DNA of 58,285 nt from a virus. Taxonomy: Duplodnaviria; Caudoviricetes. The position numbers were made by a program, and so were the translations under genes. The notes beneath the pieces were generated by a model that did not search any database, was not told the origin of the DNA, and saw only the letters and a list, made by a program, of their open reading frames with translations. The stretch is taken from IMG/VR virus record IMGVR_UViG_3300030207_002897, positions 1 through 58,285 of that record. The stretch is one strand, 5' to 3'. Below are positions 1 to 56,778 of this stretch, one piece after another. The stretch's first letter is position 1. Each line of letters starts with the position of its first letter.

Positions 1-101
1 GGACGAGTTCATCGCGGACTCAGCCCTGAGCTTCAAGGTCGAGTCGATCAGATGAAGGCTGAGGGAACATGGGAAAAACGAGGACAGCGAAGAAACAGAT
101 T
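1..101. repeat. Terminal direct overlap with 58185..58285 (circular or circularly permuted assembly)
   Basis: 1..101 equals 58185..58285 except position 3 (A vs C at 58187; synonymous GGA/GGC in the spanning ORF). Confidence 0.97.
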
Positions 102-669
102 AATGGGCGATATGGTCAATCGTCCTGGATGGGGCCAAAGCCCCCAAAAGGTTCTGGGTAATGTAGGTGGAGTGACCTATAGCGAAATGCTAGGAGCTGG
201 CCGTAAAGTAATACGACAAGCTCAAGTTACGGATTCAAAAGGGGAAACTCACACTTTCGACCCAAGGTATGCCCATTGGGATCCCAGCTTTGAAGCTGTA
301 GTTGGAGGCGAAGATCCGAACATGAGTGAGATTTGGGCTTCGCCTAGCCCTAGCGATACCAATCCACTTATGGAGGGGCAGCAGCCTGGAGAGCAGCCTT
401 ATCAAGGTGGGCCTATACCAGGTGGCGGCATGATATTCCCCGAGGAAGATCAAATGATCCCACAAATGCAAAGGCAGCCTTATAGGTCGGTTACACCGCC
501 AAATCAGAATTTTCCAGAGGGTGGACAAGGTTCTTCTGACCAAGAACTTATGGAAATGTTTGGGATGCCTACCATGAGAATAGCAGGTGTCACAAACCCC
601 GATAACCCAAGGGCGCCGCAGGGAGAACTATTAAATAAACTAAGAGCTTACCGTCAGCAAATGGGTTAA
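1..669 (+). CDS. 3' part of Pro/Gln/Met/Gly-rich protein spanning the junction (starts at 57345; ~502 aa in total)
   Basis: Frame of ORF 52..669 continues the open frame from ATG 57345 through the overlap; Cys-free, low complexity. Confidence 0.85.
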   Translation, partial: GRVHRGLSPELQGRVDQMKAEGTWEKRGQRRNRLMGDMVNRPGWGQSPQKVLGNVGGVTYSEMLGAGRKVIRQAQVTDSKGETHTFDPRYAHWDPSFEAVVGGEDPNMSEIWASPSPSDTNPLMEGQQPGEQPYQGGPIPGGGMIFPEEDQMIPQMQRQPYRSVTPPNQNFPEGGQGSSDQELMEMFGMPTMRIAGVTNPDNPRAPQGELLNKLRAYRQQMG

Positions 670-673
670 TCAC

Positions 674-1858
674 ATGGCAGTATCCGATAGCGTAACTCTC
701 TATTCCGACATACTGGATTACATTACTGCCCTGACAGACGGTGGTGCTAGAACTAAAGATCTCCGTATGCACAAGGAAGCAATTCTTGGTGCATATCGTG
801 ATATATCCATGGGTAATGAGTGGGCGTATTACATTACAGAAGGCCGTATAGATTTAGATGCAAAGTATAGCACTGGAAAGGTGACTTATACTGCGTCTAC
901 TAGAACTCTTGTCATACAGGATGGAGGGACTTGGCCTTCATGGATTAAGTATGGACGAATTCGTATAGATGATTCTGTCTACACTGTAGAAAAGACTACA
1001 GATACAGCAGCCAACATCATCTTAGATGCGTCTAATTGCCCCGCTGCTAACATTTCTTCTGCTGTGACGTATGATGCGTACCGAACTGAGTACCCGCTTC
1101 CAGACGACATGTGGAGGCTTTACGACGTTGGTGTAGAAAAGAACAACTGGGTCACATATTACATCACTCCTACTGAGTGGCAGCAGAGAGAGCGGTATCT
1201 AAGCTCTGGCGGGCAGACTTGGGCTTGGACGATTATGAAGAACTCAGATGCAGATGGGAAGTGGTCTTTGTTTGTAGATCCTTACCCCACTGAATCTGAG
1301 CCCCTTATGTTTATGTACAGAAGAAAGCCGAGGACTCTTAGGTGGGCTGGAACAGAGGTAAAAGCAAGGGCTTCATCAACTCAAAACGCTACAGCTTCCG
1401 CAACAAACACATATCTAACTACAGATACCGAGCTTCCAGCAAGTATGGTAGGTGCAGTTATAAGATTGTCCGAAACTACTACTCACCCCACGGGTCTAGC
1501 TGGCGTAAATCCTTACTACGAGCAGCATAAGATAAGCTCTATTAGTGGTACCACAGTAAACCTTGACGATGCTATTGGCAAGTCTGGCGGATACGCAAAT
1601 AAATATTTTGTTGTATCTGATCCCGTTGACATGTCTGAAAGCATGATCGAAGCATTTAAGGCTGAGGTTGAATACCGGATTGCACGCATGTCCAATGACC
1701 AGAGAGACACTGTTCAGGCTCGCCGTATTGCTGACTACCAGCTTCGCAGATCCTTGGAAGCCGAGTCGAGATTTAAGGAGAGTGGAGGATACAATCGACA
1801 GTCTAGGTACTCTTACCTGTTTACCAACCTGCAAAATGTAATAACAACGAGTTCTTGA
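674..1858 (+). CDS. Putative head-tail adaptor (tail tubular protein A / P22 gp4-like) with beta-rich insertions
   Basis: 394 aa; position after portal region and before nozzle; EYPLPDDMWRL segment and helical termini typical of podovirus adaptors. Confidence 0.6.
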   Translation: MAVSDSVTLYSDILDYITALTDGGARTKDLRMHKEAILGAYRDISMGNEWAYYITEGRIDLDAKYSTGKVTYTASTRTLVIQDGGTWPSWIKYGRIRIDDSVYTVEKTTDTAANIILDASNCPAANISSAVTYDAYRTEYPLPDDMWRLYDVGVEKNNWVTYYITPTEWQQRERYLSSGGQTWAWTIMKNSDADGKWSLFVDPYPTESEPLMFMYRRKPRTLRWAGTEVKARASSTQNATASATNTYLTTDTELPASMVGAVIRLSETTTHPTGLAGVNPYYEQHKISSISGTTVNLDDAIGKSGGYANKYFVVSDPVDMSESMIEAFKAEVEYRIARMSNDQRDTVQARRIADYQLRRSLEAESRFKESGGYNRQSRYSYLFTNLQNVITTSS

Positions 1859-9307: not shown

Positions 9308-9949
9308 ATGCAAAGTATTACAGGTGGATTCGGGCATTCCGAAAGGCGTAGAGGCCTTGGTTTCGACGAAGACAAGCTGCAAAAAGAAGGTATACCTGTT
9401 AGCTCTAGATTTACGGAAGCTATGAAAGTCCGTAAGCGCGGAGGTGCTAAGCAGCGTGAAAAAAACCGTGCAATGGCAAAAGCATATCAAGATCCAGGCG
9501 AATGGGTAACGTCGCCTGGCTTCTCTACTGACGCTGGGACTAAGCATGAAAAAGATTTTACTAATGCACGGAACCTAGGAAGTGTGATGCACGCAAAACT
9601 AGGCACGGAGTTTGACCAAAGGCTAAAGGATGCTGAGCATCGCCAGAACGTAAGCTCAATGCAAGATCAGGATTTCTTAAACAATCTGTCATACATGCAG
9701 GACCGCATAGATAACCGCACAGCACTAGATAACGCTTTACTGGACGCACAGGCAAGATACCAAGCTGCCGGTCTGGAAGCACAAAGCCAGTACGATCGCA
9801 TGATGATGCAGAACCAGATGGATATGTACAACTTAATGCAGGGTAACTTGCGAGACATGATGGGTCAGTTTAGCGGTGGATTCGGTGGTGGAATCCCAGG
9901 AATCCCCGGAATTCCAGGCGGTGACATGGGTCTAGGCGGGGGGTGGTAA
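9308..9949 (+). CDS. Putative internal virion protein, Gln/Met helical core and Gly-rich tail
   Basis: 213 aa, SD AAGGA, Cys-free. Confidence 0.7.
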   Translation: MQSITGGFGHSERRRGLGFDEDKLQKEGIPVSSRFTEAMKVRKRGGAKQREKNRAMAKAYQDPGEWVTSPGFSTDAGTKHEKDFTNARNLGSVMHAKLGTEFDQRLKDAEHRQNVSSMQDQDFLNNLSYMQDRIDNRTALDNALLDAQARYQAAGLEAQSQYDRMMMQNQMDMYNLMQGNLRDMMGQFSGGFGGGIPGIPGIPGGDMGLGGGW

Positions 9950-9952
9950 GCC

Positions 9953-12900
9953 ATGCCTCCTACTAATCGATCAGATTTAACGAGTAACCTACCCATGGAT
10001 CCAGAACAGCTAATCAGAAATCAACAAGCCGCAGAGATGGGCAAGAAGTTATTCGGGTATCAAGAGCCAGGAATAGGCAGGTACCCAAGCACTTTCAAAG
10101 CAGACCCTAGGTATTCACAGGCCCCCCCTGTTCCTATGAGCCCGCAAGAACGGGCTATCCGAGAGGCAATGAAGGGTAGTGCGCTAAGCGGCAAGGAGTT
10201 TTATGGTGGCTATCCAAACAAGCAGGCTTTAATTGAGGGTATTAAAGCGGCTGCCAGCCAAGGAGTAGATGTAGCTGAGCTATTACCATTAATTCCAGCA
10301 GGTGTTCTTAGCCCAGAAGATCACGCAGATCTTATGAAATCAAGATGGCAGGAAAATCCTAGGACAGGAGGCCTTACATCTAAAGCTATAGATCCAGGTA
10401 TAGAACACGCAATAGAAGCCGTGGGTGCACCGGGAATACCAACTGAATACGGCAATCAACTCCCGTTTGGTTCATACGGCGTAAGCAACCCAGAAGCAAT
10501 ACCCGCAACAATAATGGATGCTCTTGATCCTGGGCAACATCAATTCATGGAACACTCCCTTGGCCTTACTCCTCACAGCGGAAGACCTGGCGATGTTCCC
10601 GCCGGTAAGAAAACCAACATCTTAAGCGCGTCCCAGTTAAAGCGTATTGGAGGCATGGATAGCCTCGAGAAGCAGCTAGAGGCATTGAGGGATATTGTTT
10701 ACGACCGAGGTATACAAGCTCACAACGAAATTAAACAAAATGTCCTGAACTATATGGAGAATACAGCAGGCACGCCAGCCGGAACTAAAACAATAGCTGG
10801 CAAGATTAGAGATGCGCAAGCTGGAGGAAAGTTCTCTGGAGCTACAAGTGAAGATCTTGTAAATCAAATGGCAACAGGGATTGCCGATCAATCTCTAACA
10901 GGAGTTTCACAAAGAGCAGGTAAATATGAGCCCGCTGTTGTCGAAGGCACGACCACCTTTGAGGATCCAGACAAAGTTCTTATGAGGGCACTTGTCAATT
11001 CCGATATACCTTTTGAGCAAGACCCAGACGCTGCATCAGCCTCAGAGGGATACAAGGTAGACACCGAAGCCGCCTTTATAGAAAACATGGGTGATAAAAA
11101 GCGGTTCGATCCAACCGTAAACACACGCCCTATAGAGCAGCTTAGTCCAGGCGAACGATTGGCAGCTACATTGCAGGGTGCTACCGGCATACCTCCGCTG
11201 AGCGAGAGCGAAATCATGAAGCTGGTTGGCGAGATCAATCGAGTCAAAACTGCTACTGTGCAGTCATTTGCAGACCAGCCCGAATTGCTTCTTGGGCAGG
11301 GGCGACAGCAGCAAATGGTTTGGAATCCCAAAACTGACAAACATGAAACAACCATAGATTACACAGGAAAGGAAAAGTCGGCTCACTCCCCTCTTGATTA
11401 CCTGTATATGTGGAATAAGGGCGCACGGGGTAAGGTTGATATTCCCGATGATGTTCTTAAAAATGCCTTTAAGCAAACAATAAAGATCCCAGCGGGGTCT
11501 GGATCTGCTTATGAATGGCCTCAAGCTGACGTAATAAGAACATTAATTGGTGATTACAATCGGGGCTTTGAAGCTCTTCAGCAAAATCCAGAGCTTGCTA
11601 TCAATACAAAGCAGCCTGAAATAGTAAACCCAGAAGTGCCTCTCGACACAACCTACGATAGAATCTTTGGCCCTCATGGAGAGCGGTGGACTGGCAAACC
11701 ATTTGGTGTTCAGCCAAGAGAGTATGCTGCTGGTTATGGCCACGACGACTTCCTGAATGCACGGGACTATGTTGATTACAGAATGCAAAAGCCTCTTACG
11801 GGTAAGCTCAACTGGATGCACTTGCAGCCAAGGCTAGACTTACAAACGGAAGAAGGTGGTTCGTGGGATATAATCCCTGAAACCGAAGGATTAAGGGCAA
11901 AAACAGAACAGGCTCAAGCGGACAGCTTTAATGAATTTGTTGAGAAGTGGAACGCTAGGCATGATGTGTCGCCACAGGAAGCGGAATTAAGGTCTGTACT
12001 GAGACTGCTTGCTGGCCAAGACAAATATAAAATTGATGATGACGCCCTTGCCATGGCGATGGATTACCTTGCAGACATGACTCCAGGTAATCGCAGTGAA
12101 GGGAAGGATTGGTTTGTCGTGACACTAGAAGACGATGCCCTGTCCGAAGACGAATACGATCGGGAGCCGATTTGGGCTGATATAGCACATGCGGAAGGCG
12201 AAGTCTTGGAAGGCATGGCAGAAAGGCATCCAGAACTAAAGAAATTTTATAACGCCGATGGAGAACTAGACTATAAGGGACTAGCACAAGCCATAAGAAA
12301 TGCCCCTGGGTCGTCATTAGACATGAAGATAAGCAATCTCACTGGTGCGCAAGGTAATTTTGCTGGTCATGTTTCAGATAGGATTCCTCATGACTATGCC
12401 TGGAGAAATGTTCCTAGGTATGACGAAGCAGTTGAACTCACAAAAGGTAAAACTGATATTGGCACAGCCGATTTACAGAGAGCATTGGGTATTGGGTTTG
12501 GGCAGGCCAGTGCCCTTATGAGAAAGATGGAGGAAGCTGGTGTTGTTCAGGCGCTAGAAGGTCAATCTAAAAGACGAGTAGTTCAAATGCAGAGCACACC
12601 AGAAGGCATGATTCGCAACCTATCTCCAGCTAGACCACAATCAATACTTCCGATGGATACTGGATTCCCTCTAGACGCAGGGGCAGTATTAGGTGAGCAG
12701 GCCGGGCCAAGGATTAACCCGATGTTCCGTTACACGCCGGAAGATTTTGGTGCTAATGTTCCAATGACTCCAGAGGAAATAGCTGCAAAAGAAGCTAGAA
12801 ACCAAGAGCTTCGAGATGCTTTCTCTTCAACTAATGATGCGTTTGATTTAGAGGCAGCATCACCAGAGGCTGCAGCCCCTGAAGAAGTAAACAAAAGCCT

Positions 12901-14626
12901 ACGCGACAGAATGGCATCTGGAGCAAAGGCTGTAGTAACAGCTCCAATAGAAGGTGTTAAGAAAACCGGAGGTAAAATTAAAGGCGCTTGGGACTCCATG
13001 TGGGATTCTAACCCTGAGTTAAAAGGCCCTCCATCTAGAATGTCAGAGCTTCTAACAAGAAGAACCAATGTAGGGTCAAGCCTCAACAAGCTGCAGACAG
13101 CGATAGACGACTTTAGCAAAACTAAAGCTGGTCGACCGATAGCCTGGGGCAAGGCTGGCATTGAGAAAGCAGCCTCTTTCAAGCCTACCGCTGGAGGGCT
13201 GATAAGTTTAGGCGGCGATTTGTTTGAGTTAAGTAAGGGCGCAATTACCGCTAAGGAATATGCAAAGTATGGAACGCCAAAAGATCTTGTATTAGGTCGA
13301 GATGTTGCAGATTACAACCAGTTGATACTTCACCTTGCAGGCAACAATACTGATGGCCCAGATGGTGTAAAAGTTCAATACATTACCCCTGAGCAAGGAC
13401 AGAGACTGTTCGATCTTAGAGACGAGCTTGTCGCTGGTGTCCAATCAGGTCAGTATAGCAGCGTAGAATCACACCCTAACTACAAGACAATGCGAAGAAA
13501 CCTTAATGAGTACACCAAGATGAGAGAGGGTGGGCCCGAAGGTGCATTTGGAAGGTCTATCAATGTACTCGAAAAATCTAGCAAAGAGGATATGGGCTGG
13601 ATGCCTCAGTACAGACTTGAGACACAAGCTGGTACCGACTCTTACATAGATGAGCCAGAATCAGATCTTACCCCTTACGGAATGTTCCATATGCCCGGCT
13701 GGTCTGACTACACTGGCCAAGCAGCGTCCGTAGAAGGCGCAGGAGAGATGGCTAGTGGTACCGTCAAGAGCCTTATGAACCCATTAATGGGTGTGCATTA
13801 TGGTATTGAGGGTGTGTTTGGTAACGTGGGAGATTATGACACCTTGGGCAGTGGCTTTGTTAGGTCCCCTAACTATCAAACATTGAGGCTTCGCAGCGAT
13901 GTCGATTCCAAGAAGTTCATCGGAAAGAATACACCAGAAAAGATAAAAGAAATTTATGATGCTACCCCTTACAGCAATCGACGCTATTGGAAATGGAATC
14001 CAGACTCAAGAACCCTAACGAACAAACACACAGGGACTGCTGTAAGAGAAGAGGATACTGGAATTGAAAACTTTGGTGAGAAGTGGAAGAACTGGGGCGA
14101 TTACGTTCAGGCCCTTCGTGACGTAAGAAGCGTTGATGATAACAAACATGCTGTTACCGACCACAAGGCTATTGTCGATAAGAACTTTAAGGACAAGCCG
14201 ATGTTTACCGAGAGAGATCACGGTAATTACATTAAGCCTGAACCTTTCAAGGGTGCTACAGCCTGGGATGCGTTGAGTATGCCGAATGTTCCTTGGTATG
14301 CGAAGCTGCAACAATTTGTGGATAGGGGTCTTACGTCTATGAAACCTAGCAATCCTTTTGAAGGTGTTGCTGACACCGGCCAATTAGATGAAGTTGCAGA
14401 TCCTTATCAAAAAGGAAACGTCATAAGAATTTACAATCAAACAGGCGATAATCCAGGAGAGATCGTTGGCTATAATAGAAGCATGGGCAATGACAGCTTC
14501 TGGGAAAGCCCTGTAAGCAACGTTTTAACCGAACACGAAAGAATGATTAAGTCGCTTACACCTTACTGGGAACATAAAGAGTCTAAGTACACAGACATAT
14601 ACAAGCTAATTGGGGAAGATGAATAA
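9953..14626 (+). CDS. Large putative ejection/internal virion protein with internal FtsK-gamma-like winged helix
   Basis: 1557 aa, no Cys seen; aa ~820-877 match the FtsK gamma pattern. Confidence 0.7.
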   Translation: MPPTNRSDLTSNLPMDPEQLIRNQQAAEMGKKLFGYQEPGIGRYPSTFKADPRYSQAPPVPMSPQERAIREAMKGSALSGKEFYGGYPNKQALIEGIKAAASQGVDVAELLPLIPAGVLSPEDHADLMKSRWQENPRTGGLTSKAIDPGIEHAIEAVGAPGIPTEYGNQLPFGSYGVSNPEAIPATIMDALDPGQHQFMEHSLGLTPHSGRPGDVPAGKKTNILSASQLKRIGGMDSLEKQLEALRDIVYDRGIQAHNEIKQNVLNYMENTAGTPAGTKTIAGKIRDAQAGGKFSGATSEDLVNQMATGIADQSLTGVSQRAGKYEPAVVEGTTTFEDPDKVLMRALVNSDIPFEQDPDAASASEGYKVDTEAAFIENMGDKKRFDPTVNTRPIEQLSPGERLAATLQGATGIPPLSESEIMKLVGEINRVKTATVQSFADQPELLLGQGRQQQMVWNPKTDKHETTIDYTGKEKSAHSPLDYLYMWNKGARGKVDIPDDVLKNAFKQTIKIPAGSGSAYEWPQADVIRTLIGDYNRGFEALQQNPELAINTKQPEIVNPEVPLDTTYDRIFGPHGERWTGKPFGVQPREYAAGYGHDDFLNARDYVDYRMQKPLTGKLNWMHLQPRLDLQTEEGGSWDIIPETEGLRAKTEQAQADSFNEFVEKWNARHDVSPQEAELRSVLRLLAGQDKYKIDDDALAMAMDYLADMTPGNRSEGKDWFVVTLEDDALSEDEYDREPIWADIAHAEGEVLEGMAERHPELKKFYNADGELDYKGLAQAIRNAPGSSLDMKISNLTGAQGNFAGHVSDRIPHDYAWRNVPRYDEAVELTKGKTDIGTADLQRALGIGFGQASALMRKMEEAGVVQALEGQSKRRVVQMQSTPEGMIRNLSPARPQSILPMDTGFPLDAGAVLGEQAGPRINPMFRYTPEDFGANVPMTPEEIAAKEARNQELRDAFSSTNDAFDLEAASPEAAAPEEVNKSLRDRMASGAKAVVTAPIEGVKKTGGKIKGAWDSMWDSNPELKGPPSRMSELLTRRTNVGSSLNKLQTAIDDFSKTKAGRPIAWGKAGIEKAASFKPTAGGLISLGGDLFELSKGAITAKEYAKYGTPKDLVLGRDVADYNQLILHLAGNNTDGPDGVKVQYITPEQGQRLFDLRDELVAGVQSGQYSSVESHPNYKTMRRNLNEYTKMREGGPEGAFGRSINVLEKSSKEDMGWMPQYRLETQAGTDSYIDEPESDLTPYGMFHMPGWSDYTGQAASVEGAGEMASGTVKSLMNPLMGVHYGIEGVFGNVGDYDTLGSGFVRSPNYQTLRLRSDVDSKKFIGKNTPEKIKEIYDATPYSNRRYWKWNPDSRTLTNKHTGTAVREEDTGIENFGEKWKNWGDYVQALRDVRSVDDNKHAVTDHKAIVDKNFKDKPMFTERDHGNYIKPEPFKGATAWDALSMPNVPWYAKLQQFVDRGLTSMKPSNPFEGVADTGQLDEVADPYQKGNVIRIYNQTGDNPGEIVGYNRSMGNDSFWESPVSNVLTEHERMIKSLTPYWEHKESKYTDIYKLIGEDE

Positions 14627-21840: not shown

Positions 21841-22225
21841 AGTTTCCCTCCATTACTAGTTCATGTACATACTCCATAACCTCGTCTTCCGTGACTCGGT
21901 TAGGAGCCCGTAACTCAGGGTCTTTAATCCTTAGCCACGACTCAAGATCGTAGTGAAGTATATCATGGATGTACTTGTACGCAAGCTGCTTAGCGTGAGG
22001 CATAGCAGCAAGGTCATCCATGTGGCACTTCTTGCAGGCCCTGAAATAATTTTCTTCTTTAGCCCAGGCATGGTGTGGTGCCTGGCTTTTCCTTTCCATC
22101 TCATGAGTCTCCAGTGGAAACCCAGCATGATGTGTGGCACCGCACACCCAACACTGCCGCCTGTTATCTGCCCAACTCTGCCGCTCATTTAACAAATGTT
22201 TAATTTCAGATGCTGTCTTCTTCAT
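21812..22225 (-). CDS. HNH-like Zn-binding protein
   Basis: CWVC...LETHEM...NYFRACKKCH pattern. Confidence 0.55.
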   Translation of the reverse strand: MKKTASEIKHLLNERQSWADNRRQCWVCGATHHAGFPLETHEMERKSQAPHHAWAKEENYFRACKKCHMDDLAAMPHAKQLAYKYIHDILHYDLESWLRIKDPELRAPNRVTEDEVMEYVHELVMEGNCGHNNTLST

Positions 22226-23405
22226 CCTTACCCCAGCCGTTTGTTAGTAGATTCATTGCGTTGCCTCCAATAAAATTCTTTATTGTTATGTCGTCGTACC
22301 CCATGTCCAGCAGGTGCTTGGCAATTAATGGGAAGTCAGCCGCTGTCGTCATCTCATCAGGTGGATCTGTAAAGCCATCGAAGTCTGAGCCTATAGCGGG
22401 TACGTCTGCCCCTGCTACATTGACCATATGATTAAGCGTCTGCTCTATGTACTTAAGACCATTCCCTTCATGGTGGTGAGGTGTTAGCCAGTAGTTCATG
22501 AAGATAATGCCAGCACAACAGCCTCTGTCGGCCATCCACTTTAGCTCCCAGTCTTGCAGGTTATATGAAAGTCTATGCACTTCGCTAGCTCCGACGTGGC
22601 TTGCCATTAAAGCGTGGTCTTTGTCGTGAGCGTCCACTATATCGTACACTTCTTTCCGTCCTCTCAGTGTCATGTGAGTTACATCTATAATCATGCCCAA
22701 CTCTAGCATCGTCTCAACAATCTCCACCCCTGTTTGAGTTAGCCCGCCGGACTCCTCCCAGTTGCCCGCCAGGGAGTGAAAGTTTTTTATATTCTTTTTC
22801 TCTGGCTCAGGGTAAGGAAACACACACGACTCCACCGCTGGATTGGGATAGAAGTGGGCAAGGGTTAGATAAGCACAGCCCTTTGCCCACAGCTGACGAA
22901 GGTTAGAAATAATTTCTTTTTGATCCCCTGGTCCGCCATCACCTATCAGTGAGTGTGCCCCTTCAACCGAATGAACTATACAGCTTTCGCCATGATTAAC
23001 CTTACTAACTAGGTGATGTTTATCTCTAGCTATACATACACCATCGCATTGATTCACGCTATCTTCTAGGTGTTGCATCATATCTAACGTGACTTGGAAG
23101 TAAGTAGGATCGAGAATCTTTTTCCTGAACTTTGGAGATAGCTTGGAAAGAAATTTTATTAAGGGCACATCATCAAGCCACTCGCGTTCGAGTACATAAG
23201 TGGTAGCCAATGATACATCTATGTGATCCTTAAGATCATCCAGAGATACACGGTGACTAAAAGGCCAGAAGGTGTACTTAAACAGGCGGGAAAGAAATTT
23301 CTTTTTGTTCATGCTCCGGGAGAACATGTAGCTTTTAAGATGTGGGTGTGTATGCAGATCAACAGACACGCCATTATAAAACTCTTTGGTGCTTTCAATA
23401 ATCAT
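22206..23405 (-). CDS. Membrane dipeptidase (peptidase M19, amidohydrolase fold)
   Basis: DLHTH, VEGAHSL, YLTLAH, GLTQTG...GMIIDVTH, ASH and IGSDFDG motifs. Confidence 0.9.
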   Translation of the reverse strand: MIIESTKEFYNGVSVDLHTHPHLKSYMFSRSMNKKKFLSRLFKYTFWPFSHRVSLDDLKDHIDVSLATTYVLEREWLDDVPLIKFLSKLSPKFRKKILDPTYFQVTLDMMQHLEDSVNQCDGVCIARDKHHLVSKVNHGESCIVHSVEGAHSLIGDGGPGDQKEIISNLRQLWAKGCAYLTLAHFYPNPAVESCVFPYPEPEKKNIKNFHSLAGNWEESGGLTQTGVEIVETMLELGMIIDVTHMTLRGRKEVYDIVDAHDKDHALMASHVGASEVHRLSYNLQDWELKWMADRGCCAGIIFMNYWLTPHHHEGNGLKYIEQTLNHMVNVAGADVPAIGSDFDGFTDPPDEMTTAADFPLIAKHLLDMGYDDITIKNFIGGNAMNLLTNGWGKDEEDSI

Positions 23406-30016: not shown

Positions 30017-31666
30017 TTAACCTTTCAAAATAATTTTAGTTATGTGGCTGGGCGGAACCCAGTATTCATCTACATCCTGTGTCAGTACAGCCAACACAGG
30101 TACCTTTAATTCGTCTGGCCATGGAGTCATGCCATCCGTGATTGCAACTATTACATCTGGCTTCGGGTTAGCCTGAGCTAGCGTGTCTTCAATTAACACA
30201 CCAACATCAGTACCTCCACCACCATTCATCTGAAGTTGCCTCAGTTGATTGTCACTTACATTCTTAGACATAACTACTTTAGTCTTAGCTCCGGTGTCAC
30301 CCGTGATAACACAGACATCCTCGCTGGATCCCAGGTTATCTAATAATTTTTTTATTACTGAGTAAGCCTTGTCGTAATCATCACTCATCATGGAAGCTGA
30401 TGTGTCTAGGCATATTGCAAGCTGTGGTTTCCCACTGCGTTTGACTGGCCTGCATACTCCATGCCCTAGCCCACGCCTATTCAACCTGCGATAAGTTCGC
30501 TTGCCTCCCCTGGATCTAAAATTATTTAGTTTTCCACGGGTCAGCCTGAGTATCATAGACCATGGGTCTTCGGAGATCTTAGATATGGAACGCATCACAT
30601 CCTTCAAGGCGAATGATATGTTACTACCTAAATCGCCCTGAGCTTTGTGACATGCTGATGTTATAAGTGAATCAACATCGGCTTCACTCATTGAGTTTCC
30701 ACCAGCGTCATCACTTGAGCCAGCTATCTCCCAAGCTCTTGGCGTTCCATCTGATAACGAGGATCCATTTCCTCCGGTGCCTGGCGCTGATATTGGTTCG
30801 CCATTCCAGACGAGGGAGCCTGATTCATCTGTTGATATGAAGCCATCTGCTGGCTCGCCATCTGATTCAGCTGAGCGTCCATCACTTGCAGTGCGTTCGC
30901 TGTCCCCTGATTGATCCCGATGATCTGACCCGCTAGTATCTGTAGCTGTCCTTCCATCTGGTTCAACTTCTCCTTCAGTTCCTCCTGCTGATCCTTGTTC
31001 TGCACTAGATTCCCCAGTGTCACTTGGATCGTCGTCAGTTTCTCGTTGAAATCTAACTGAACTTCCTGTATCTTCTCCAGTGTCGCTCGGCCTATCCGAC
31101 CGTTCGTCGTTGGAGTTGCTTTGGTCTTGGCCATCGCTAATTCCTTTCATCAAAATTCTAAAAACTTTTTCTGCGGATTGATTGCCTGTGATCTCAGGTG
31201 TTTGACTGTATGGGTATCGGTCGTGCATCAACCAATCATAACCCACCCTGAACTCACACCATCTACCACTCGTCCCGTGTACCGAGAACTCCTGGTCTAG
31301 TAAATAATTTACTGTTATGTCACAGGCCTCATTCCATTTCTCTCTACTAATCTTTGTAGGATTATTCACTAAGGCGTGGAACCTACGGTGATGTCCCATA
31401 AATATATGACACATCTCATGCAACAAGCACGAACTGATCTCCGCTTGATGCCTATTCTTTAGGTACTCAGGGTCGTAGTACAGATTCAAGAATCTATCTA
31501 CTGCCATAGTGCCTAGCCCTTTGACTGGCACAGTACGCATAGAGAACAGTAAGTCACGGGAGAACTTCCAGTACCTAGCAGCCGTCAGCTTTGCTTGTCG
31601 CAAAACCTCCGGCTCTTTGTGGTTTATTCTAGAATATACTTCCGTTGTCGGCAATGATTTAGCCAT
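30017..31666 (-). CDS. DUF2201-type metallopeptidase-VWA protein
   Basis: TMAVD, HEMCH, WNEACD, acidic linker, and VWA MIDAS residues DTSASM, GGGGTD, ITDG. Confidence 0.9.
   Translation of the reverse strand: MAKSLPTTEVYSRINHKEPEVLRQAKLTAARYWKFSRDLLFSMRTVPVKGLGTMAVDRFLNLYYDPEYLKNRHQAEISSCLLHEMCHIFMGHHRRFHALVNNPTKISREKWNEACDITVNYLLDQEFSVHGTSGRWCEFRVGYDWLMHDRYPYSQTPEITGNQSAEKVFRILMKGISDGQDQSNSNDERSDRPSDTGEDTGSSVRFQRETDDDPSDTGESSAEQGSAGGTEGEVEPDGRTATDTSGSDHRDQSGDSERTASDGRSAESDGEPADGFISTDESGSLVWNGEPISAPGTGGNGSSLSDGTPRAWEIAGSSDDAGGNSMSEADVDSLITSACHKAQGDLGSNISFALKDVMRSISKISEDPWSMILRLTRGKLNNFRSRGGKRTYRRLNRRGLGHGVCRPVKRSGKPQLAICLDTSASMMSDDYDKAYSVIKKLLDNLGSSEDVCVITGDTGAKTKVVMSKNVSDNQLRQLQMNGGGGTDVGVLIEDTLAQANPKPDVIVAITDGMTPWPDELKVPVLAVLTQDVDEYWVPPSHITKIILKG
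30724..31134 (-). CDS. Nested coiled-coil protein in an alternative frame inside the VWA peptidase gene
   Basis: 136 aa, AAAGGA 7 nt before ATG, heptad periodicity, Gln/Met-rich tail. Confidence 0.6.
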   Translation of the reverse strand: MAKTKATPTTNGRIGRATLEKIQEVQLDFNEKLTTIQVTLGNLVQNKDQQEELKEKLNQMEGQLQILAGQIIGINQGTANALQVMDAQLNQMASQQMASYQQMNQAPSSGMANQYQRQAPEEMDPRYQMERQELGR

Positions 31667-31676
31667 GATAAACTCC

Positions 31677-32792
31677 TTAATTGTGGATGTTACTTAGCCA
31701 ATCATCTTCCATGCTGGCAACGTACTCGTTCTTAACTACATCATGACCATCAGGTTTCAGCTCTAACAGCTTAGCCTCGAAGGTCTTTGCAATCTCAGGG
31801 TGTGTACGATGCACTGTTGCAAGGAACTCTCTGCCATTCTCCCATCTCTCTGGAGTTAACTCTTCCTTAACTCTAGTGAGTACAGATTTAACGTAGCTTA
31901 TAGCTAGGTTGCTTGCTTTAGGTAGCTCAATCTCACGAGGACTGTTAAGTATTTCCTCGGGATCACCGTAGCTATCTACATCTAGGAAGTCTAAGAACTC
32001 CTGACCTACCTCATCACCGACACATCCACCTATTAACTTACGCTGTGTCTTCTTGTTGGCACCGACTAGCATTGCGGCACCCAAGATACGAGCAGCATTA
32101 GTCCACGATCTAGGTGAAGGGAATGGACTACCCATAGTCTCATCTTTATTGGGTCGGTTAAGATACTCAGGCCGAGACAGTGTAGTTCTACAGTTAACAA
32201 AACTATTTATTTTGTCAGCGTAGAAAGGTACTGATTCCTCCCAACCATCTGGAATCATAGGGAACTTAGGTGCTGGAAACTCAAAGCCTCCACCCTCAGT
32301 CATCCCTTGAGCCCATGCTTTCTTGTCGAACTCCCAATCACCTACGCACATCCTGTTAATCATAGGCTCGCTGATCTCGTGACCGTTCGCAGCTTCATCA
32401 GGTCTGTTACCTGCTGCGTACACCCAGCAATTCTTTGGCGGGCTAGCCATGAACGTGAGTGCTGCTGCTTGCATGTCCTCCGATACACAAGTGAACTCGT
32501 CAACCAGCATTAAAGATTTTTCTTTCTTAGCCTGGATGATGTTCTCCATTGGGTACTTCTTAATGACACCATGCTCTTCGCCATCCACTGTTACCTTGGA
32601 CGGTATAGGAAATCCTCCAATGTCCTCTGGTTCGTGCTGATCCAGGAGCATAAGAATAAATTTTCTTTGTGCTGCCTGTGATAGTGCTGTCATTACCTCC
32701 GTCTTGCCTAGTCCAGGTGAACCATATGCAAAACTTACTACTCCGATTTGTGGTGGGATAAAGTACCACCAATTTGTTTGCTTAGTTTTCAT
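31677..32792 (-). CDS. MoxR-like AAA+ ATPase
   Basis: GSPGLGKT, EPEDIGGFP, LMLVDE, AAGN, NRM and PSPRSW motifs; adjacent VWA partner. Confidence 0.9.
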   Translation of the reverse strand: MKTKQTNWWYFIPPQIGVVSFAYGSPGLGKTEVMTALSQAAQRKFILMLLDQHEPEDIGGFPIPSKVTVDGEEHGVIKKYPMENIIQAKKEKSLMLVDEFTCVSEDMQAAALTFMASPPKNCWVYAAGNRPDEAANGHEISEPMINRMCVGDWEFDKKAWAQGMTEGGGFEFPAPKFPMIPDGWEESVPFYADKINSFVNCRTTLSRPEYLNRPNKDETMGSPFPSPRSWTNAARILGAAMLVGANKKTQRKLIGGCVGDEVGQEFLDFLDVDSYGDPEEILNSPREIELPKASNLAISYVKSVLTRVKEELTPERWENGREFLATVHRTHPEIAKTFEAKLLELKPDGHDVVKNEYVASMEDDWLSNIHN

Positions 32793-51374: not shown

Positions 51375-51827
51375 ATGCCAAATATCATGATAGCTGGGCA
51401 ACAAATGCCCTATGATCCACAGCAGCTGGCTATGCTCTTGCAGAGCGCTAGTGAACAAGACTTGAATATGGCGGTTCAGCAAATTCAAGGATTGCCTCCA
51501 CAAGAAAGAAATCAGGCTATGCAGTTAATACAGCAGGCCATGATGATGCTAGGTGGCCCACAAGCTGCACAGCAGGGTGCCGGAGATTTAACTCATCTGC
51601 AGGGCCCAGATGTAGGCGCGTTATCCCAAGCGATGGAATCTGGGATGCAGCAAGGAACAATAAAACCGCTTGGGCCATCAAGTAGCGGAGCTGGGCCAGC
51701 CCAAATGGGGCTTGGTGGGAACTTCGTTGATGATGCAGGTGCAATGGCTCCAGGGTATTTGCCAGGCATAGACGGCGCCACTCCAGATTTGCGACAAGCA
51801 AGGATGCGTGATAATGGACTCACATAA
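51375..51827 (+). CDS. Gln/Met/Gly/Ala-rich low-complexity protein
   Basis: 150 aa, tight packing. Confidence 0.7.
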   Translation: MPNIMIAGQQMPYDPQQLAMLLQSASEQDLNMAVQQIQGLPPQERNQAMQLIQQAMMMLGGPQAAQQGAGDLTHLQGPDVGALSQAMESGMQQGTIKPLGPSSSGAGPAQMGLGGNFVDDAGAMAPGYLPGIDGATPDLRQARMRDNGLT

Positions 51828-54471: not shown

Positions 54472-56778
54472 ATGGACAGCACTGAAAAAGAGCATCCTTT
54501 CAGGCCTATTGTAGATCAATGGCTAGAAAAGATTAAAAAGGCTAAGAAACAGAAGCACGAACGCTTCGGCAAGTATGCTGAAGAGGCCATGAAATTCTTT
54601 GATGGTTCGCACGACTGGATGTGGAAGGGGGATTACGCTAAATCTAGTGGCGGATTCCTGGATAAAAAAGCCCAAGGCGCTATGCCTACCTTCCGCATGA
54701 CAGTCAACCGAGTATTTGAAGCTGTCGCTTTATTTGGTCCGGTCTTATATCACCGAAATCCAGTGATTCAGGTTACTCCCAGAGTAACACCTAAAATCGA
54801 GCCTGTGCTTCTTGGCCTTGATCCTGAAGATGAGGAGCAAATCCAGCAAGCTCAGCAGATGATTTTCCAGCAAGACATGGAGAACGATAAGAAGCGTAGC
54901 TATTCTAGGCTAAAAGAACACTATTTGAACTGGGTGCAGCAAGAGTGCAATAAAAAAGATCAGGCTCGCATGGCTATTAATGAAGCCATTGTAAAGGGGA
55001 TGAGCTTTTTATGGACAGAAATGTATCGCCCTAGTGGTTCTGAGATTAATGTCCCTAAAAGTTTTTATGTTTCTGTTGATGATGTTGTAATCGACCCTGA
55101 TGCTCAGTATTGGGAAGACGTTCAGTGGGTTGCTCGTCGCTGTGTTCACCCCCGCTGGAAAGTCGAGAGAGAATATGGCATTGAGGGCAAGCTAAAAGGC
55201 ACTAAATCATCCCTCAATAGGCAGGCAGAGAAAAGCAATCGAAGTACGAAAGAGGATTCCGGCTCAAAGAGGACTGGTGACTCTTTTGATTTGGTCGAAT
55301 ATTGGCAGATTTACTCCAAGACTGGGTTTGGCACTAGACTGAAAAAAAGTGGCGTTGTTAAAGACGTTAAAGAGAAGTTTGATTTTGAGCAGTTTGGAGA
55401 TTTTTGTTACATTGCTGTAACCGAAGACTGCTCTTACCCTCTGAACATGCCGCCTGAATCGCTAGAAGGCGATCCAGAAGAGATGTTTTTACGCTCTCAA
55501 TGGCCTATTCCTTTCTGGACAGATGGCGGCTGGCCGTTTAGTAAGTTGCACTTCTATGAGAAGCCAAAAGAAATATGGCCAATTTCTCTTATTAAGCCTG
55601 CTATCGGAGAGCTCCGGTTTGTTAACTGGTGTATGTCCTTCCTTGCTGACAAAGTGGCCGCATCTTCTACCACTTATGTTGCTATTGCGAAGGCCGCGGG
55701 TGCAGAAATACAAGATCAAATTAAGTCCGGCGTTGGCCCATACACTCATATAGAAATATCTGAGATATTTGGGCGTAGTGTTAGCGACGTAGTTTCATTC
55801 CTGGACGCACCATCGTTTAACGTCGATATATGGCGGATGGTGTCTGAAGTTCTGGACATGATCGACAAGAGAACCGGGCTCACGGAATTGCTTTATGGGC
55901 TTTCCGGTGGTACTCAGATTCGATCAGCTACAGAAGCGGATGTGCGAAACCAGAACGTATCCGTTCGTCCAGATGATATGGCTTCTCGAGTGGAAGATTG
56001 GCTTAGTAAGTGTGCTGTAAACGAAATGCTTACGGCAGAATGGGCTTTGACAGGAAATGACGTATATCATGTCCTTGGCCCAACGGGTGCGATGATCTGG
56101 GAGCAGCAGATCCAGCAGCAAGAGTTCGAGCGAACGGTTCGAGACTACGATTATCGCATTGAAGCAGGATCTGCAAGGAAGCCTAATAAAACAAATATTA
56201 TTAGGCAGCTAAATGACTTTGCACAGATAGCATTCCCCATGATTCAGCAGTTTGTAGAGATGGGAATGGATGGTCCATACAACGCCTTCATGCGTGACTG
56301 GGCAAAAGCTAATGAAATGGATGTAGAGCCATATCTTCTTGATCTGGAAGAGCTGAAGCAAAAAGAACAAGAGGAAGAGCAGGCAGCGAAAGAAGGCCAA
56401 GAGCCAGATCCTGAGCAGCAAGCACAGGAAATGCAGATGCAGTATCAGCAACAACAAATGCAATACGAGCAGCAGAAGGGTCAGCTCGAACTCCAGAAAA
56501 TGCAAATGGAAATGCAGCTTAAACAGGCTGAGTTACAGTCTAAAGCATCTGGCGGAGACTCTTCGGCTAGAATTGCCGAGGAGAAAATGCAGCTCGAAGC
56601 AGAGAAAATGCGTCTTGATGCACAATCTCACCAGCAAGAACTACAACAAGACTCCGAGCGACACGATATGGAAATGGAGCAAGCTAAAGAAAAACATCAA
56701 ATGGAGATGGAATTCTTACAGCTAAAGAGTGAAGCAGAAAAAAGACGAAATACTGCTCAGGCATCAGATAGCAATTAA
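54472..56778 (+). CDS. Portal protein (P22-like, long C-terminal Gln/Glu coiled coil)
   Basis: 768 aa; VVIDPDA, RTGLTELLYG...RSATEA, YRIEAGS motifs; near TerL. Confidence 0.88.
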   Translation: MDSTEKEHPFRPIVDQWLEKIKKAKKQKHERFGKYAEEAMKFFDGSHDWMWKGDYAKSSGGFLDKKAQGAMPTFRMTVNRVFEAVALFGPVLYHRNPVIQVTPRVTPKIEPVLLGLDPEDEEQIQQAQQMIFQQDMENDKKRSYSRLKEHYLNWVQQECNKKDQARMAINEAIVKGMSFLWTEMYRPSGSEINVPKSFYVSVDDVVIDPDAQYWEDVQWVARRCVHPRWKVEREYGIEGKLKGTKSSLNRQAEKSNRSTKEDSGSKRTGDSFDLVEYWQIYSKTGFGTRLKKSGVVKDVKEKFDFEQFGDFCYIAVTEDCSYPLNMPPESLEGDPEEMFLRSQWPIPFWTDGGWPFSKLHFYEKPKEIWPISLIKPAIGELRFVNWCMSFLADKVAASSTTYVAIAKAAGAEIQDQIKSGVGPYTHIEISEIFGRSVSDVVSFLDAPSFNVDIWRMVSEVLDMIDKRTGLTELLYGLSGGTQIRSATEADVRNQNVSVRPDDMASRVEDWLSKCAVNEMLTAEWALTGNDVYHVLGPTGAMIWEQQIQQQEFERTVRDYDYRIEAGSARKPNKTNIIRQLNDFAQIAFPMIQQFVEMGMDGPYNAFMRDWAKANEMDVEPYLLDLEELKQKEQEEEQAAKEGQEPDPEQQAQEMQMQYQQQQMQYEQQKGQLELQKMQMEMQLKQAELQSKASGGDSSARIAEEKMQLEAEKMRLDAQSHQQELQQDSERHDMEMEQAKEKHQMEMEFLQLKSEAEKRRNTAQASDSN

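What the first reader, a model, noticed from the sequence alone, without database searches (positions are those of the whole stretch)
12410..12583. FtsK-gamma-like winged helix embedded in the 1557-aa virion protein
Seen: aa ~820-877 VPRYDEAVELTKGKTDIGTADLQRALGIGFGQASALMRKMEEAGVVQALEGQSKRRVV. Established: this follows the FtsK/SpoIIIE gamma pattern (D.LYD.AV......AS.S.LQR.LRIGYNRAAR....ME..G.V......REVL), which reads KOPS to orient DNA translocation. The YNRAAR recognition helix is changed to FGQASA and no FtsK motor domain is present. Inference: a captured DNA-gripping module in an ejected protein that guides or protects the incoming genome, or a mimic of the host translocase.
Basis: partly seen in the sequence, partly recalled or inferred. 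Interest (0 to 1): 0.7.

Follow-up and report, generated by a model that had tools for sequence, protein, structure and literature searches.

The report
Optional FtsK-gamma DNA-binding cassette, phage giant protein
A large mosaic protein encoded among the particle genes of an uncultured marine phage carries, in an optional insert, a genuine copy of the small DNA-reading "gamma" domain of the bacterial chromosome pump FtsK; this is a further example of a rare theme that is already in print, and its function is untested.

Summary
Window 12410-12583 (+) encodes exactly the quoted peptide, aa 820-877 of the 1557-aa ORF 9953-14626. It scores 41.8-48.6 bits on Pfam FtsK_gamma (cut-off 30.6), and it is the only Pfam domain in the protein. 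Predicted models match solved FtsK gamma domains best (rmsd 1.3 A over 57 columns; Z 10.1).

- **Optional insert.** The domain is the last element of a ~390-aa insert (aa ~494-880). All 7 members of the protein's 90%-identity cluster have the insert. All 3 more distant homologues lack it, and a 98%-complete sister phage genome has no gamma domain anywhere.
- **Mosaic carrier.** Relatives swap other modules (cpYpsA/SLOG, DUF7831, a NADAR-like segment) at boundaries marked by a repeated junction motif.
- **Changed DNA-reading face.** The fold-defining residues are kept. Of the E. coli residues, 1 of 3 KOPS-reading ones and 2 of 4 XerD-contact ones survive. This argues against a faithful FtsK mimic.
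- **No recent donor.** The nearest relatives are at most 47% identical and are mostly short, motorless tandem-gamma proteins.
- **Best reading (~0.55).** It is an accessory dsDNA-binding module of a polyvalent protein that is probably packaged and ejected. Packaging, ejection and DNA binding are inferred, not shown.
- **Precedent.** Iyer et al. 2017 list the FtsK wHTH as a rare polyvalent-protein domain. This scan noted similar cases on other phage DNA.

It is a new member of a known kind, of modest interest.

The parts
9953..14626 (+). 1557-aa ORF: mosaic carrier protein with a conserved N-terminal core (aa ~221-493), a variable slot, and a conserved C-terminal part (aa ~896-1557)
   Evidence: ORF list and translation. 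Alignment with 4 homologues. Identity by segment: 81-91% in aa 221-493 and 54-55% in aa 1076-1557 against P0004-P0006.
11432..12592 (+). Optional insert (aa ~494-880): about 330 aa of orphan sequence, then a linker, then the gamma domain
   Evidence: Absent from P0004, P0005 and P0006 and from loci L002 and L003. Present in all 7 members of the 90% cluster. The part aa 494-821 has no relative other than its own cluster and no usable atlas hit. The AF2 model of this part is mostly of low confidence.
12341..12400 (+). Variable, probably flexible linker just upstream of the gamma domain (aa 797-816)
   Evidence: 11 of the 17 variable columns of the insert's non-gamma part (aa 494-821) among the 7 cluster members lie at aa 797-816. 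The model has pLDDT < 50 at model residues 311-323, which are aa 804-816.
12416..12583 (+). FtsK_gamma winged-helix domain (aa 822-877)
   Evidence: Pfam PF09397 above its cut-off. phmmer against PDB finds FtsK gamma 2j5o/2ve8 at E 1.2e-4. In the AF2 model built with an alignment, the 10-residue blocks covering the domain have mean pLDDT 94-98, falling to 80 in the last block (model residues 381-390); the order of elements is H-E-H-H-E. Best structural matches are FtsK gamma. Only 1 of 56 columns varies among the 7 cluster members.
12623..12724 (+). Junction motif SPARPQSILPMD...AVLGEQxGPRINPM that follows the insert
   Evidence: Motif search. The same motif marks module boundaries in P0004 and P0006. 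It is repeated at DNA level inside the L002 gene, 28 nt at 96% and 41 nt at 76%. The window copy is chimeric between the two L002 copies.
9974..10063 (+). Conserved N-terminal segment DLTSNLPMDPEQLIRNQQAAEMGKKLFGYQ, upstream of which relatives carry extra modules
   Evidence: Nearly invariant (29 of its 30 columns) in all 5 aligned proteins. Upstream of it lie cpYpsA in P0003, DUF7831 and a NADAR-like segment in P0005, and an unassigned ~290-aa module in P0004 and P0006; P0004's DUF7831 module lies just downstream of it.
674..1858 (+). Context: tail protein gene at the start of the same-strand block that runs to 19286
   Evidence: phrog_6013 tail protein, E 2.1e-5.
54472..56778 (+). Context: portal gene. 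Terminase large subunit lies at 52328-54058 and major head protein at 48816-49979, on the same strand
   Evidence: phrog_156 portal E 1.4e-8 and phrog_7579 terminase E 0.0016. phrog_9953 major head protein E 5.4e-12.

Best explanation
The 58-aa stretch is a genuine FtsK-gamma-type winged helix that has been domesticated as an accessory module of a large mosaic ('polyvalent') phage protein. It is the C-terminal element of an optional ~390-aa insert, tied to it by a variable linker. The insert sits in a slot bounded by a repeated junction motif, at which related phages exchange modules.

Most likely mechanism (inferred): the carrier protein is packaged with the virion and delivered with the DNA. 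The gamma module then binds double-stranded DNA through its recognition helix and a basic wing (KRR). This tethers the carrier, and the uncharacterised ~330-aa segment inserted with it, to phage or host DNA early in infection. It does this with a sequence preference different from E. coli KOPS, and without any translocase activity.

Shown: domain identity, its fold class, the absence of a motor, the optional-cassette status, and the gene's position in the structural block. Inferred: packaging and ejection, DNA binding, and the target.
For: - Domain identity: Pfam FtsK_gamma above cut-off. PDB sequence hits are to FtsK gamma only, at E about 1e-4.
- Structure: the single-sequence AF2 model gives three helices at pLDDT 71-87, and its 11 best Foldseek rows are all FtsK gamma (rmsd 1.1-1.3 A over 43 columns for ten of them; the XerD-gamma fusion 5dcf 8.7 A over 48; E 0.064-0.14). 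The alignment-based model has pLDDT 94-98 over most of the domain. Foldseek ranks 1-5, 7-10 and 12 are FtsK gamma (E 7.9e-4 to 1.7e-2, TM 0.70-0.85 on the target). VIA-align against 48,161 chains puts 2ve8_A first (Z 10.1, 66 residues aligned to a 67-residue chain).
- Core residues are shared with 275 gamma copies from the 149 nearest relatives: Q842 92%, R843 87%, G848 93%, A852 92%, E860 86%, wing R874 96%.
- The wing is more basic than usual (K873, R874, R875), and the domain has 9 basic against 8 acidic residues.
- Maintenance: 1 of 56 gamma columns varies among the 7 cluster members, against 17 of 328 in the rest of the insert.
- Cassette status: absent in 3 of 3 distant homologues and in 2 of 2 loci. 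There are 0 gamma matches in the 98%-complete sister genome.
- Polyvalent character: relatives carry cpYpsA (59.3 bits), DUF7831 (94.5 bits) and a sub-threshold NADAR/gp30.3-like segment. These modules act on intracellular nucleotides or ADP-ribose.
- Gene position: same strand and block as head, terminase, portal and tail genes.
- Precedent: a 3633-aa metagenomic protein has two FtsK_gamma copies, an H-NS C-terminal domain and LPD38, a 'large polyvalent protein' domain. Iyer et al. 2017 (PMC5512222, passages read) name the FtsK wHTH as an infrequent dsDNA-binding domain of polyvalent proteins.
Against: - No direct evidence that the protein is in the particle or is ejected. It matches no known internal virion, ejection or tape-measure family, and no cultured relative exists.
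- In the window's own copy, gamma is the only recognisable domain. No LPD, MuF or zincin peptidase domain typical of polyvalent proteins was found.
- The recognition helix lacks the two usual basic residues. Q851 stands where 84% of relatives have R or K, and A854 where 57% have R or K. R857 stands where 88% have D or E. DNA binding could therefore be weakened or retargeted.
- Isolated E. coli gamma binds KOPS DNA poorly as a monomer (PMC3384302, passage read), and here there is one copy per chain.
- The alignment-based model was built from gamma-family rows, so its likeness to gamma is partly by construction. In the wide search other winged helices score within 1-2 Z units.
- The domain is dispensable for the lineage.
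Confidence: 0.55

Rival explanations
1. FtsK mimic. The ejected gamma domain imitates the host translocase. It would either engage XerD to trigger or derail XerCD recombination at dif, or occupy KOPS-like sites to misdirect or block host FtsK.
For: FtsK gamma uses one surface for both KOPS and XerD, and the 9 residues 1289-1297 suffice to activate recombination (PMC5052618, passages and Table 1 read). The critical R1289 and Q1288 are kept here as R843 and Q842.
Against: - XerD contacts R1292 and N1296 are both G here, so 2 of 4 side-chain contacts are kept, and those two are family-wide invariants.
- Of the KOPS-blind triple R1300/E1303/E1306, only E1306 is kept. R1300 is A and E1303 is R.
- No cellular FtsK gamma is close. 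The best 150 of 161 hits are 27-47% identical, and 123 of 150 are 400 aa or shorter, too short for a motor.
- The host, and so its own FtsK and XerD, is unknown.
Confidence: 0.07
2. In-particle DNA organiser. The gamma module binds the phage's own genome inside the capsid or at the portal, for example holding the first-ejected end, and has no role in the host cytoplasm.
For: The gene lies in the structural block. Gamma domains have been recruited to phage DNA handling before: the small terminase of Bacillus phages Sam46 and Sam112 carries one (PMC8190038, passages read).
Against: - A sister genome of the same architecture does without any gamma domain, so it cannot be a core packaging or holding function.
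- There is no obvious array of a repeated, polar 8-mer in the genome. GGGNAGGG occurs 4 times on + and 2 on -, the B. subtilis SRS 0 times, and the top octamers are low-complexity A-rich words. This was not tested against shuffles.
Confidence: 0.15
3. Passenger in a structural protein. The 1557-aa protein is a tail, tape-measure or fibre component that never enters the cytoplasm. The gamma domain is then a neutral hitch-hiker or a protein-protein adaptor rather than a DNA binder.
For: Nothing identifies the carrier's own function. Two usual basic residues of the recognition helix are lost. The insert is optional.
Against: - The gamma segment is the least variable part among the 7 near-identical variants: 1 of 56 columns, against 17 of 328 in the rest of the insert.
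- Its composition matches the genome (GC 0.458 against 0.462), so it is not a fresh, unselected arrival.
- Sister proteins carry cpYpsA, DUF7831 and NADAR-like modules, which make sense only inside a cell.
Confidence: 0.15

Closest known systems
Gamma subdomain of FtsK/SpoIIIE DNA translocases (Pfam PF09397; PDB 2J5P, 2J5O, 2VE8/2VE9, 5DCF)
   Same: Same domain family by HMM score above cut-off. Same winged-helix topology and the best structural match. The conserved core is kept: LQR, I-G, A, M-E and the wing R.
   Different: It is not at the C-terminus of an alpha/beta motor, and the protein has no FtsK_SpoIIIE domain. There is a single copy in a 1557-aa phage protein. The recognition helix is re-patterned: R1297 to Q, R1300 to A, E1303 to R, and also R1292 to G and N1296 to G. 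It is therefore unlikely to read E. coli-type KOPS or to activate XerD in the known way.
Polyvalent proteins of phages and conjugative elements (Iyer, Burroughs, Anand, de Souza, Aravind 2017, J Bacteriol; PMC5512222, passages read)
   Same: A large protein encoded beside late or virion genes, with modules of unrelated function swapped between relatives. The paper explicitly lists the 'FtsK wHTH domain' among infrequent dsDNA-binding domains of such proteins.
   Different: The window's copy has no LPD, MuF or zincin-peptidase domain. The carrier scaffold is an orphan family with only 4 protein clusters found in 5.8 billion proteins. Delivery is untested. The paper's supplementary architecture lists could not be seen, so whether this exact architecture is listed there is unknown.
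3633-aa metagenomic giant protein P0089 (FtsK_gamma x2 + H-NS C-terminal domain + LPD38) and 2202-aa P0064 (embedded FtsK_gamma)
   Same: Gamma domains embedded far from the C-terminus of giant motorless proteins. P0089 also carries a certified polyvalent-protein domain and a second kind of DNA-binding domain.
   Different: They are unrelated to the window's protein outside the gamma domain. They carry two gamma copies, against one here.
FtsK_gamma fused to the small terminase of Bacillus phages Sam46/Sam112, and solo gamma genes of phages (PMC8190038, passages read)
   Same: Phage recruitment of the gamma domain without the motor. The role of such phage copies is stated there to be unknown.
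   Different: In those phages the domain is close to host Bacillus FtsK/SpoIIIE and sits on a packaging protein. Here there is no close donor, and the domain sits in an optional insert of a giant protein.
T7-type internal core/ejection proteins gp15 and gp16 (recalled; tested here only by the general PHROG, phage-record and PDB searches)
   Same: Comparable gene position, after the tail genes and near the end of the structural block, and comparable sizes: 720, 1557 and 1291 aa ORFs.
   Different: No sequence similarity was detected to any PHROG other than through the gamma region, and none to any PDB chain. The likeness is positional only.

Membership tests
FtsK_gamma domain family (PF09397) | Score above the curated Pfam gathering cut-off | tested here: met
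   41.8 bits for the whole protein and 48.6 bits for the piece, against 30.6. 47.5 bits in the six-frame search.
FtsK_gamma domain family (PF09397) | Three-helix winged-helix fold, with solved gamma domains as nearest structures | tested here: met
   Order of elements H-E-H-H-E, pLDDT 94-98 over most of the domain and 80 in its last block. Foldseek best rows are FtsK gamma, rmsd 1.3-1.6 A over 56-57 columns. VIA-align Z 10.1 for 2ve8_A, ranked first of 48,161 chains, with the next unrelated winged helix at Z 9.0. Caveat: the alignment used for the model consisted of gamma-family proteins. The single-sequence model gave the same top hits at E 0.06-0.14.
FtsK_gamma domain family (PF09397) | Conserved core residues (LQR, I-G, A, M-E, wing R) | tested here: met
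   Q842, R843, I847, G848, A852, E860 and R874 match the majority residue of 275 domain copies, at 72-96% each.
FtsK/SpoIIIE translocase (functional FtsK) | Gamma follows an alpha/beta ATPase motor (FtsK_SpoIIIE, FtsK_alpha) in the same chain | tested here: not met
   No other Pfam family in the 1557-aa protein at E <= 10. The control protein P0063 shows that these domains are detected when present.
FtsK/SpoIIIE translocase (functional FtsK) | KOPS-reading residues of the recognition helix (E. coli R1300, E1303, E1306) | tested here: not met
   1 of 3 kept: A854, R857 and E860. This speaks only to E. coli-type KOPS; the host motif is unknown.
FtsK/SpoIIIE translocase (functional FtsK) | XerD-contact side chains (E. 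coli Q1288, R1289, R1292, N1296) | tested here: inconclusive
   2 of 4 kept, Q842 and R843. G846 and G850 replace R1292 and N1296. The host XerD is unknown.
FtsK_gamma domain family (PF09397) | Binds double-stranded DNA | not testable with these tools
   Needs EMSA or SELEX. Only the retained fold, the wing arginine and the basic wing KRR can be cited.
Phage polyvalent proteins (Iyer et al. 2017) | Several unrelated domains combined in one polypeptide, varying between relatives | tested here: met
   Across the family: cpYpsA with gamma in P0003; DUF7831 in P0004 and P0005; a NADAR/gp30.3-like segment below cut-offs in P0005; gamma only in the window.
Phage polyvalent proteins (Iyer et al. 2017) | Encoded among late/virion genes | tested here: met
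   Same-strand block with major head, terminase, portal and tail genes.
Phage polyvalent proteins (Iyer et al. 2017) | Packaged in the virion and delivered with the DNA | not testable with these tools
   No cultured relative. Needs particle proteomics.
Phage polyvalent proteins (Iyer et al. 2017) | Signature LPD, MuF or zincin-like peptidase domains (frequent, not obligatory) | tested here: not met
   None in P0002 or P0003-P0006 at the thresholds used.

The most novel reading that the evidence does not exclude
The gamma domain, with its re-patterned recognition helix (Q851, A854, R857, K858) and extra-basic wing, may be a sequence-specific address label. It would place a wholly novel ~330-aa effector (aa 494-821, with no relative in 5.8 billion proteins outside its own cluster) on a defined polar motif of the host chromosome or of the entering phage DNA. 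The repeated junction motif (SPARPQS..PMD / GPRINPM) may be a dedicated recombination or processing signal that lets this phage lineage shuffle ejected-effector cassettes between an N-terminal and an internal slot.
Probability: 0.12. Interest if true: 0.6.

Novelty: new member of a known kind. Interest (0 to 1): 0.3.

Why it matters
It adds a clean case, resolved by presence and absence, to a rare theme: phages re-using the DNA-reading tip of the chromosome pump FtsK, without the pump, inside giant proteins encoded with the virion genes. The theme is already in print.

The same lineage exists with and without the insert, and the boundaries are marked by a repeated junction. This makes a natural experiment for asking what a motorless gamma domain does for a phage. 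That role is stated to be unknown for phage gamma genes (PMC8190038).

Earlier AI notes of this scan, which are unchecked, report the same theme in an N4-like virion RNA polymerase, a crAss-like cargo protein and a ParB-carrying giant protein. If those hold, capture of gamma into giant virion-block proteins is recurrent and convergent, and that would deserve one bench study. On its own the finding changes no established view.

Tried and rejected
- **Carrier protein.** blastn and tblastn of the gene or protein against 50,697 phage records gave no match. tblastn with portal and terminase gave no match either. PHROG hits of the 1557-aa protein all run through the gamma region only. The neighbours of 720, 213, 258 and 1291 aa gave 0 PHROG families, and Pfam gave at most a sub-threshold hit. 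A profile of the 5-protein alignment against PDB gave only noise, E >= 0.13. phmmer of the 837-aa, 1291-aa and portal proteins against PDB gave nothing usable. The ESM Atlas gave no usable hit for aa 494-820 and chance-level scores of 0.80 or less for aa 1076-1557.
- **Orphan part of the insert (aa 494-821).** No homologue among proteins of 179-571 aa. Only its own cluster among proteins of 856-2725 aa. Proteins shorter than 179 aa, of 572-855 aa or longer than 2725 aa were not searched. In the AF2 model it is mostly pLDDT < 50, with helical stretches at model residues 149-215 and 245-304.
- **More relatives.** IMG/VR gave 1 confirmed locus of 138 pattern matches. The metagenome scan gave 1 of 423. 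The family is tiny.
- **KOPS-type motifs in the phage genome.** Counts are unremarkable. This was not tested against shuffles and is not decisive.
- **Recent transfer.** Rejected on composition: GC 0.458 for gamma against 0.462 for the genome.
- **Gamma-like domains in deposited phages.** Single-sequence tblastn found 14 of 50,697 records at E <= 1e-3. Where annotated, they are FtsK-, segregation-ATPase- or EccC-like genes, and none is a virion protein. This search is insensitive.
- **Other.** No tRNA genes were found for a host hint. The papers by Lowe 2008 and Sivanathan 2006 were not held, so residue roles were taken from PMC5052618 and PMC2680272 instead. No binding prediction job was run.
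Full report
**Observation.** They are residues 820-877 of a 1557-aa ORF at 9953-14626. The window is a complete IMG/VR virus record of 58,285 bp, with CheckV completeness 100%.

**Is it a gamma domain?** Pfam FtsK_gamma (PF09397) matches aa 822-877 over profile positions 6-61 of 63. It scores 41.8 bits (E 8.6e-11) for the whole protein and 48.6 bits for the piece alone; the curated cut-off is 30.6. It is the only Pfam family in the protein at E <= 10, so no FtsK motor is present. It is also the only FtsK_gamma match in six frames of the record. phmmer against PDB sequences finds the P. aeruginosa and E. coli FtsK gamma domains: 2j5o and 2ve8 at E about 1.2e-4, and 2j5p at E 0.002.

A single-sequence AF2 model of aa 780-916 gives three helices at pLDDT 71-87. 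Its 11 best Foldseek rows are all FtsK gamma entries. Ten have rmsd 1.1-1.3 A over 43 columns (the XerD-gamma fusion 5dcf has 8.7 A over 48). All have E 0.064-0.14, so none reaches 0.001.

A second model covers the whole insert and was built on an alignment of 20 short gamma-family proteins. It gives the domain pLDDT 94-98 over most of its length, with the element order H-E-H-H-E.
- Foldseek ranks 1-5, 7-10 and 12 are FtsK gamma, with E 7.9e-4 to 1.7e-2, rmsd 1.3-1.6 A over 56-57 columns and target TM 0.70-0.85. Rank 6 is an unrelated Hop1 chain.
- VIA-align against 48,161 chains puts 2ve8_A first (Z 10.1, rmsd 2.8 A, 66 residues aligned to a 67-residue chain). Other winged helices follow at Z 9.0 and below.
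- Caveat: the alignment rows were gamma proteins, so this second model leans towards gamma.

The domain call stands.

**Residue-level comparison.** PMC5052618 gives E. coli residues 1289-1297 as RQFRIGYNR. Its Table 1 lists the XerD-contact side chains Q1288, R1289, R1292 and N1296, and R1289 is the most important (passages and table read). PMC2680272 gives the KOPS-blind triple R1300A/E1303A/E1306A (passage read). I used the alignment to map these onto the phage protein.
- Kept: Q842 (Q1288), R843 (R1289) and E860 (E1306).
- Changed: R1292 to G846, N1296 to G850, R1297 to Q851, R1300 to A854, E1303 to R857.

I then compared the domain with 275 gamma copies extracted from 149 of its 150 best-scoring relatives.
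- The core residues are the majority residues: Q 92%, R 87%, G848 93%, A852 92%, E860 86%, wing R874 96%.
- G846 (28%) and G850 (35%) are common variants.
- Q851 is rare (5%; R or K in 84%). A854 is uncommon (10%; R or K in 57%). R857 is very rare (2 of 275; D or E in 88%).
- The wing reads KRR, where most relatives have P/A-R-E/K.

The truly unusual changes are at the three recognition-helix positions. The charge pattern is shifted rather than simply lost: the domain has 9 basic and 8 acidic residues.

**The carrier is a mosaic and the domain sits in an optional insert.** A search of 5.8 billion proteins found 4 relatives: P0003 (100% identical over the shared part) and P0004, P0005 and P0006. 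In the 5-way alignment, aa 221-493 are 81-91% identical and aa 1076-1557 are 54-55% identical to P0004-P0006. Residues ~494-880 are simply absent from all three. tblastn on the two loci recovered from IMG/VR and from metagenomes shows the same gap. The record that holds L002 (57,324 bp, 98% complete) has no FtsK_gamma match anywhere at E <= 0.01. L003's record was not held and was not searched.

The protein's own 90% cluster has 7 members, and all 7 keep the insert. Among them 1 of 56 gamma columns varies. The figures elsewhere are 17 of 328 in the rest of the insert, 29 of 493 upstream and 18 of 680 downstream. Of the 17 variable columns of the non-gamma part of the insert, 11 cluster at aa 797-816, just upstream of gamma. 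The model has pLDDT < 50 at aa 804-816. This looks like a flexible linker followed by a maintained domain, but the numbers are small.

Other modules also come and go.
- Three cluster members (1729-1730 aa) carry an N-terminal cpYpsA/SLOG domain (59.3 bits). A fourth member (1592 aa) begins within that module. The window's copy lacks it.
- The ORF upstream in the window (9308-9949) is unrelated to that domain.
- P0004 and P0005 carry DUF7831 (about 94.5 bits).
- P0005 also has a segment with sub-threshold hits to T4 gp30.3 (27.8 bits, cut-off 36) and NADAR (22 bits, cut-off 35.1).

Module boundaries carry a repeated motif, SPARPQS(I/M)xPMD ... AVLGEQxGPRINPM. It directly follows the gamma domain in the window (12623-12724). 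It occurs twice in P0004 and P0006. It is repeated at DNA level within the L002 gene: 28 nt at 96% and 41 nt at 76%, about 1.93-1.95 kb apart. The window's copy is chimeric. Its 5' half resembles L002's N-terminal junction and its 3' half resembles L002's internal junction. This is what recombination between junction repeats would leave behind (inference). The ~330 aa that precede gamma in the insert have no relative outside the cluster, no atlas hit and no confident model.

**Context.** The gene lies in one same-strand block with these genes:
- major head protein, 48816-49979 (phrog_9953, E 5.4e-12);
- terminase large subunit, 52328-54058;
- portal, 54472-56778 (phrog_156, E 1.4e-8);
- a tail protein, 674-1858.

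ORFs of 837, 290, 419, 220, 720, 213, 1557, 258 and 1291 aa follow, up to 19286. That position is where podoviruses of the T7 type encode internal core proteins (recalled, not tested). No sequence or profile search linked the 1557-aa protein or its neighbours to any known virion component, and no deposited phage is related at all. 'Virion protein' and 'ejected' are therefore inferences. They rest on gene position and on the intracellular nature of the modules carried by sister proteins.

**Where does the domain come from, and is the theme known?** Every one of 1.84 billion representatives was scored with a 77-aa query. This gave 161 hits at E <= 1e-3, 6 at <= 1e-10 and none at <= 1e-30. The 150 listed are 27-47% identical.
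- 123 of these 150 are 400 aa or shorter.
- 118 of the 149 with a detectable domain have two or three tandem copies.
- One hit (P0027, a TPR/NACHT protein) is not a gamma protein.

There is thus no recent cellular donor, and the insert's composition matches the genome. Two listed hits are giant proteins with internal gamma copies: P0064 (2202 aa) and P0089 (3633 aa; gamma, an H-NS C-terminal domain and LPD38, a 'large polyvalent protein associated domain').

Iyer et al. 2017 (PMC5512222; passages read, supplements not seen) describe polyvalent proteins of phages. These are encoded near virion genes and are predicted to be injected. The paper names the FtsK wHTH among their infrequent dsDNA-binding domains. 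PMC8190038 (passages read) reports gamma fused to a small terminase. It states that the role of solo phage gamma genes is unknown. Earlier AI notes of this scan describe similar embedded gamma domains on other phage DNA: an N4-like virion RNA polymerase, a crAss-like cargo protein and a ParB-carrying giant protein. I did not test those notes.

**Mechanism and rivals.** My best reading, at about 0.55, is that this is an accessory dsDNA-binding module of a polyvalent protein that is probably packaged and delivered. It would tether the carrier and the co-inserted orphan segment to DNA early in infection, with a specificity different from E. coli KOPS.

The evidence is layered as follows.
- Near certain: domain identity (about 0.97) and cassette status (about 0.95).
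- Roughly 0.6 each: DNA binding, and delivery into the host.
- Against: two usual basic residues of the recognition helix are lost. There is a single copy per chain, and even E. coli gamma binds KOPS poorly as a monomer (PMC3384302). There is no evidence that the protein is in the particle.

The rivals are these.
- An FtsK mimic acting on XerD or KOPS (0.07). R843 is kept, but 2 of 4 XerD contacts and 2 of 3 KOPS-reading residues are changed.
- An in-capsid organiser of the phage's own DNA (0.15). This is weakened by the gamma-free sister genome and by the absence of an obvious motif array.
- A passenger in a purely structural protein (0.15). This is weakened by the low variability of gamma and by the intracellular-type modules of sister proteins.

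**Verdict.** The thing is a new member of a known kind: an FtsK-gamma wHTH in a phage polyvalent or giant virion-block protein. Its added value is a clear natural comparison of insert-bearing and insert-free genomes and a visible module-junction repeat. Interest is 0.3.

Noticed in passing
window 12623-12724; L002 3025-3144 and 4975-5073: A repeated junction motif (SPARPQS..PMD ... AVLGEQxGPRINPM) marks module boundaries in this protein family. It is a DNA-level direct repeat inside the L002 gene (28 nt at 96%, 41 nt at 76%). The window's copy is a chimera of the two L002 copies. It could be a recombination linker or a processing site.
   Followed up: partly
window 9953-10063 and proteins P0003, P0166, P0168: Near-identical variants of the same protein (same 90% cluster) carry an extra ~172-aa N-terminal cpYpsA/SLOG module that the window's copy lacks. 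More distant relatives carry DUF7831 and a NADAR/gp30.3-like segment instead.
   Followed up: partly
proteins P0007-P0156 (hits): The nearest relatives of this gamma domain are mostly short motorless proteins with two or three tandem gamma copies: 118 of 149 have at least 2 copies, and 123 of 150 are 400 aa or shorter. This is a large uncharacterised population.
   Followed up: partly
protein P0089 (3633 aa) and P0063 (892 aa): P0089 combines two gamma copies, an H-NS C-terminal domain and LPD38 in one giant protein. P0063 is an FtsK motor with gamma followed by a C-terminal TIR domain.
   Followed up: no
window 22206-23405 (-): A phage-encoded membrane dipeptidase of family M19 (139.5 bits, E 1.8e-40), an unusual gene for a phage.
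   Followed up: no
window 30017-32792 (-): A DUF2201 metallopeptidase-like protein with a VWA domain lies next to an AAA ATPase. This is a MoxR/VWA-like pair (label recalled) in the early/replication block.
   Followed up: no
window 51808-52344 (+): A small protein with a Lar-like / HNH / endonuclease VII-type zinc-finger N-terminus lies directly upstream of the terminase large subunit and overlaps it.
   Followed up: no
window 57345-58283 and 1-669 (+): ORFs run off both ends of the record in different frames. The record is therefore cut inside a gene or genes, even though it is rated 100% complete and 'linear'.
   Followed up: no
whole window: The lineage has no relative among 50,697 deposited phage records, even with portal and terminase proteins. 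PHROG matches to the head, portal and terminase genes are weak. It is an uncultured marine lineage with few metagenomic relatives.
   Followed up: partly
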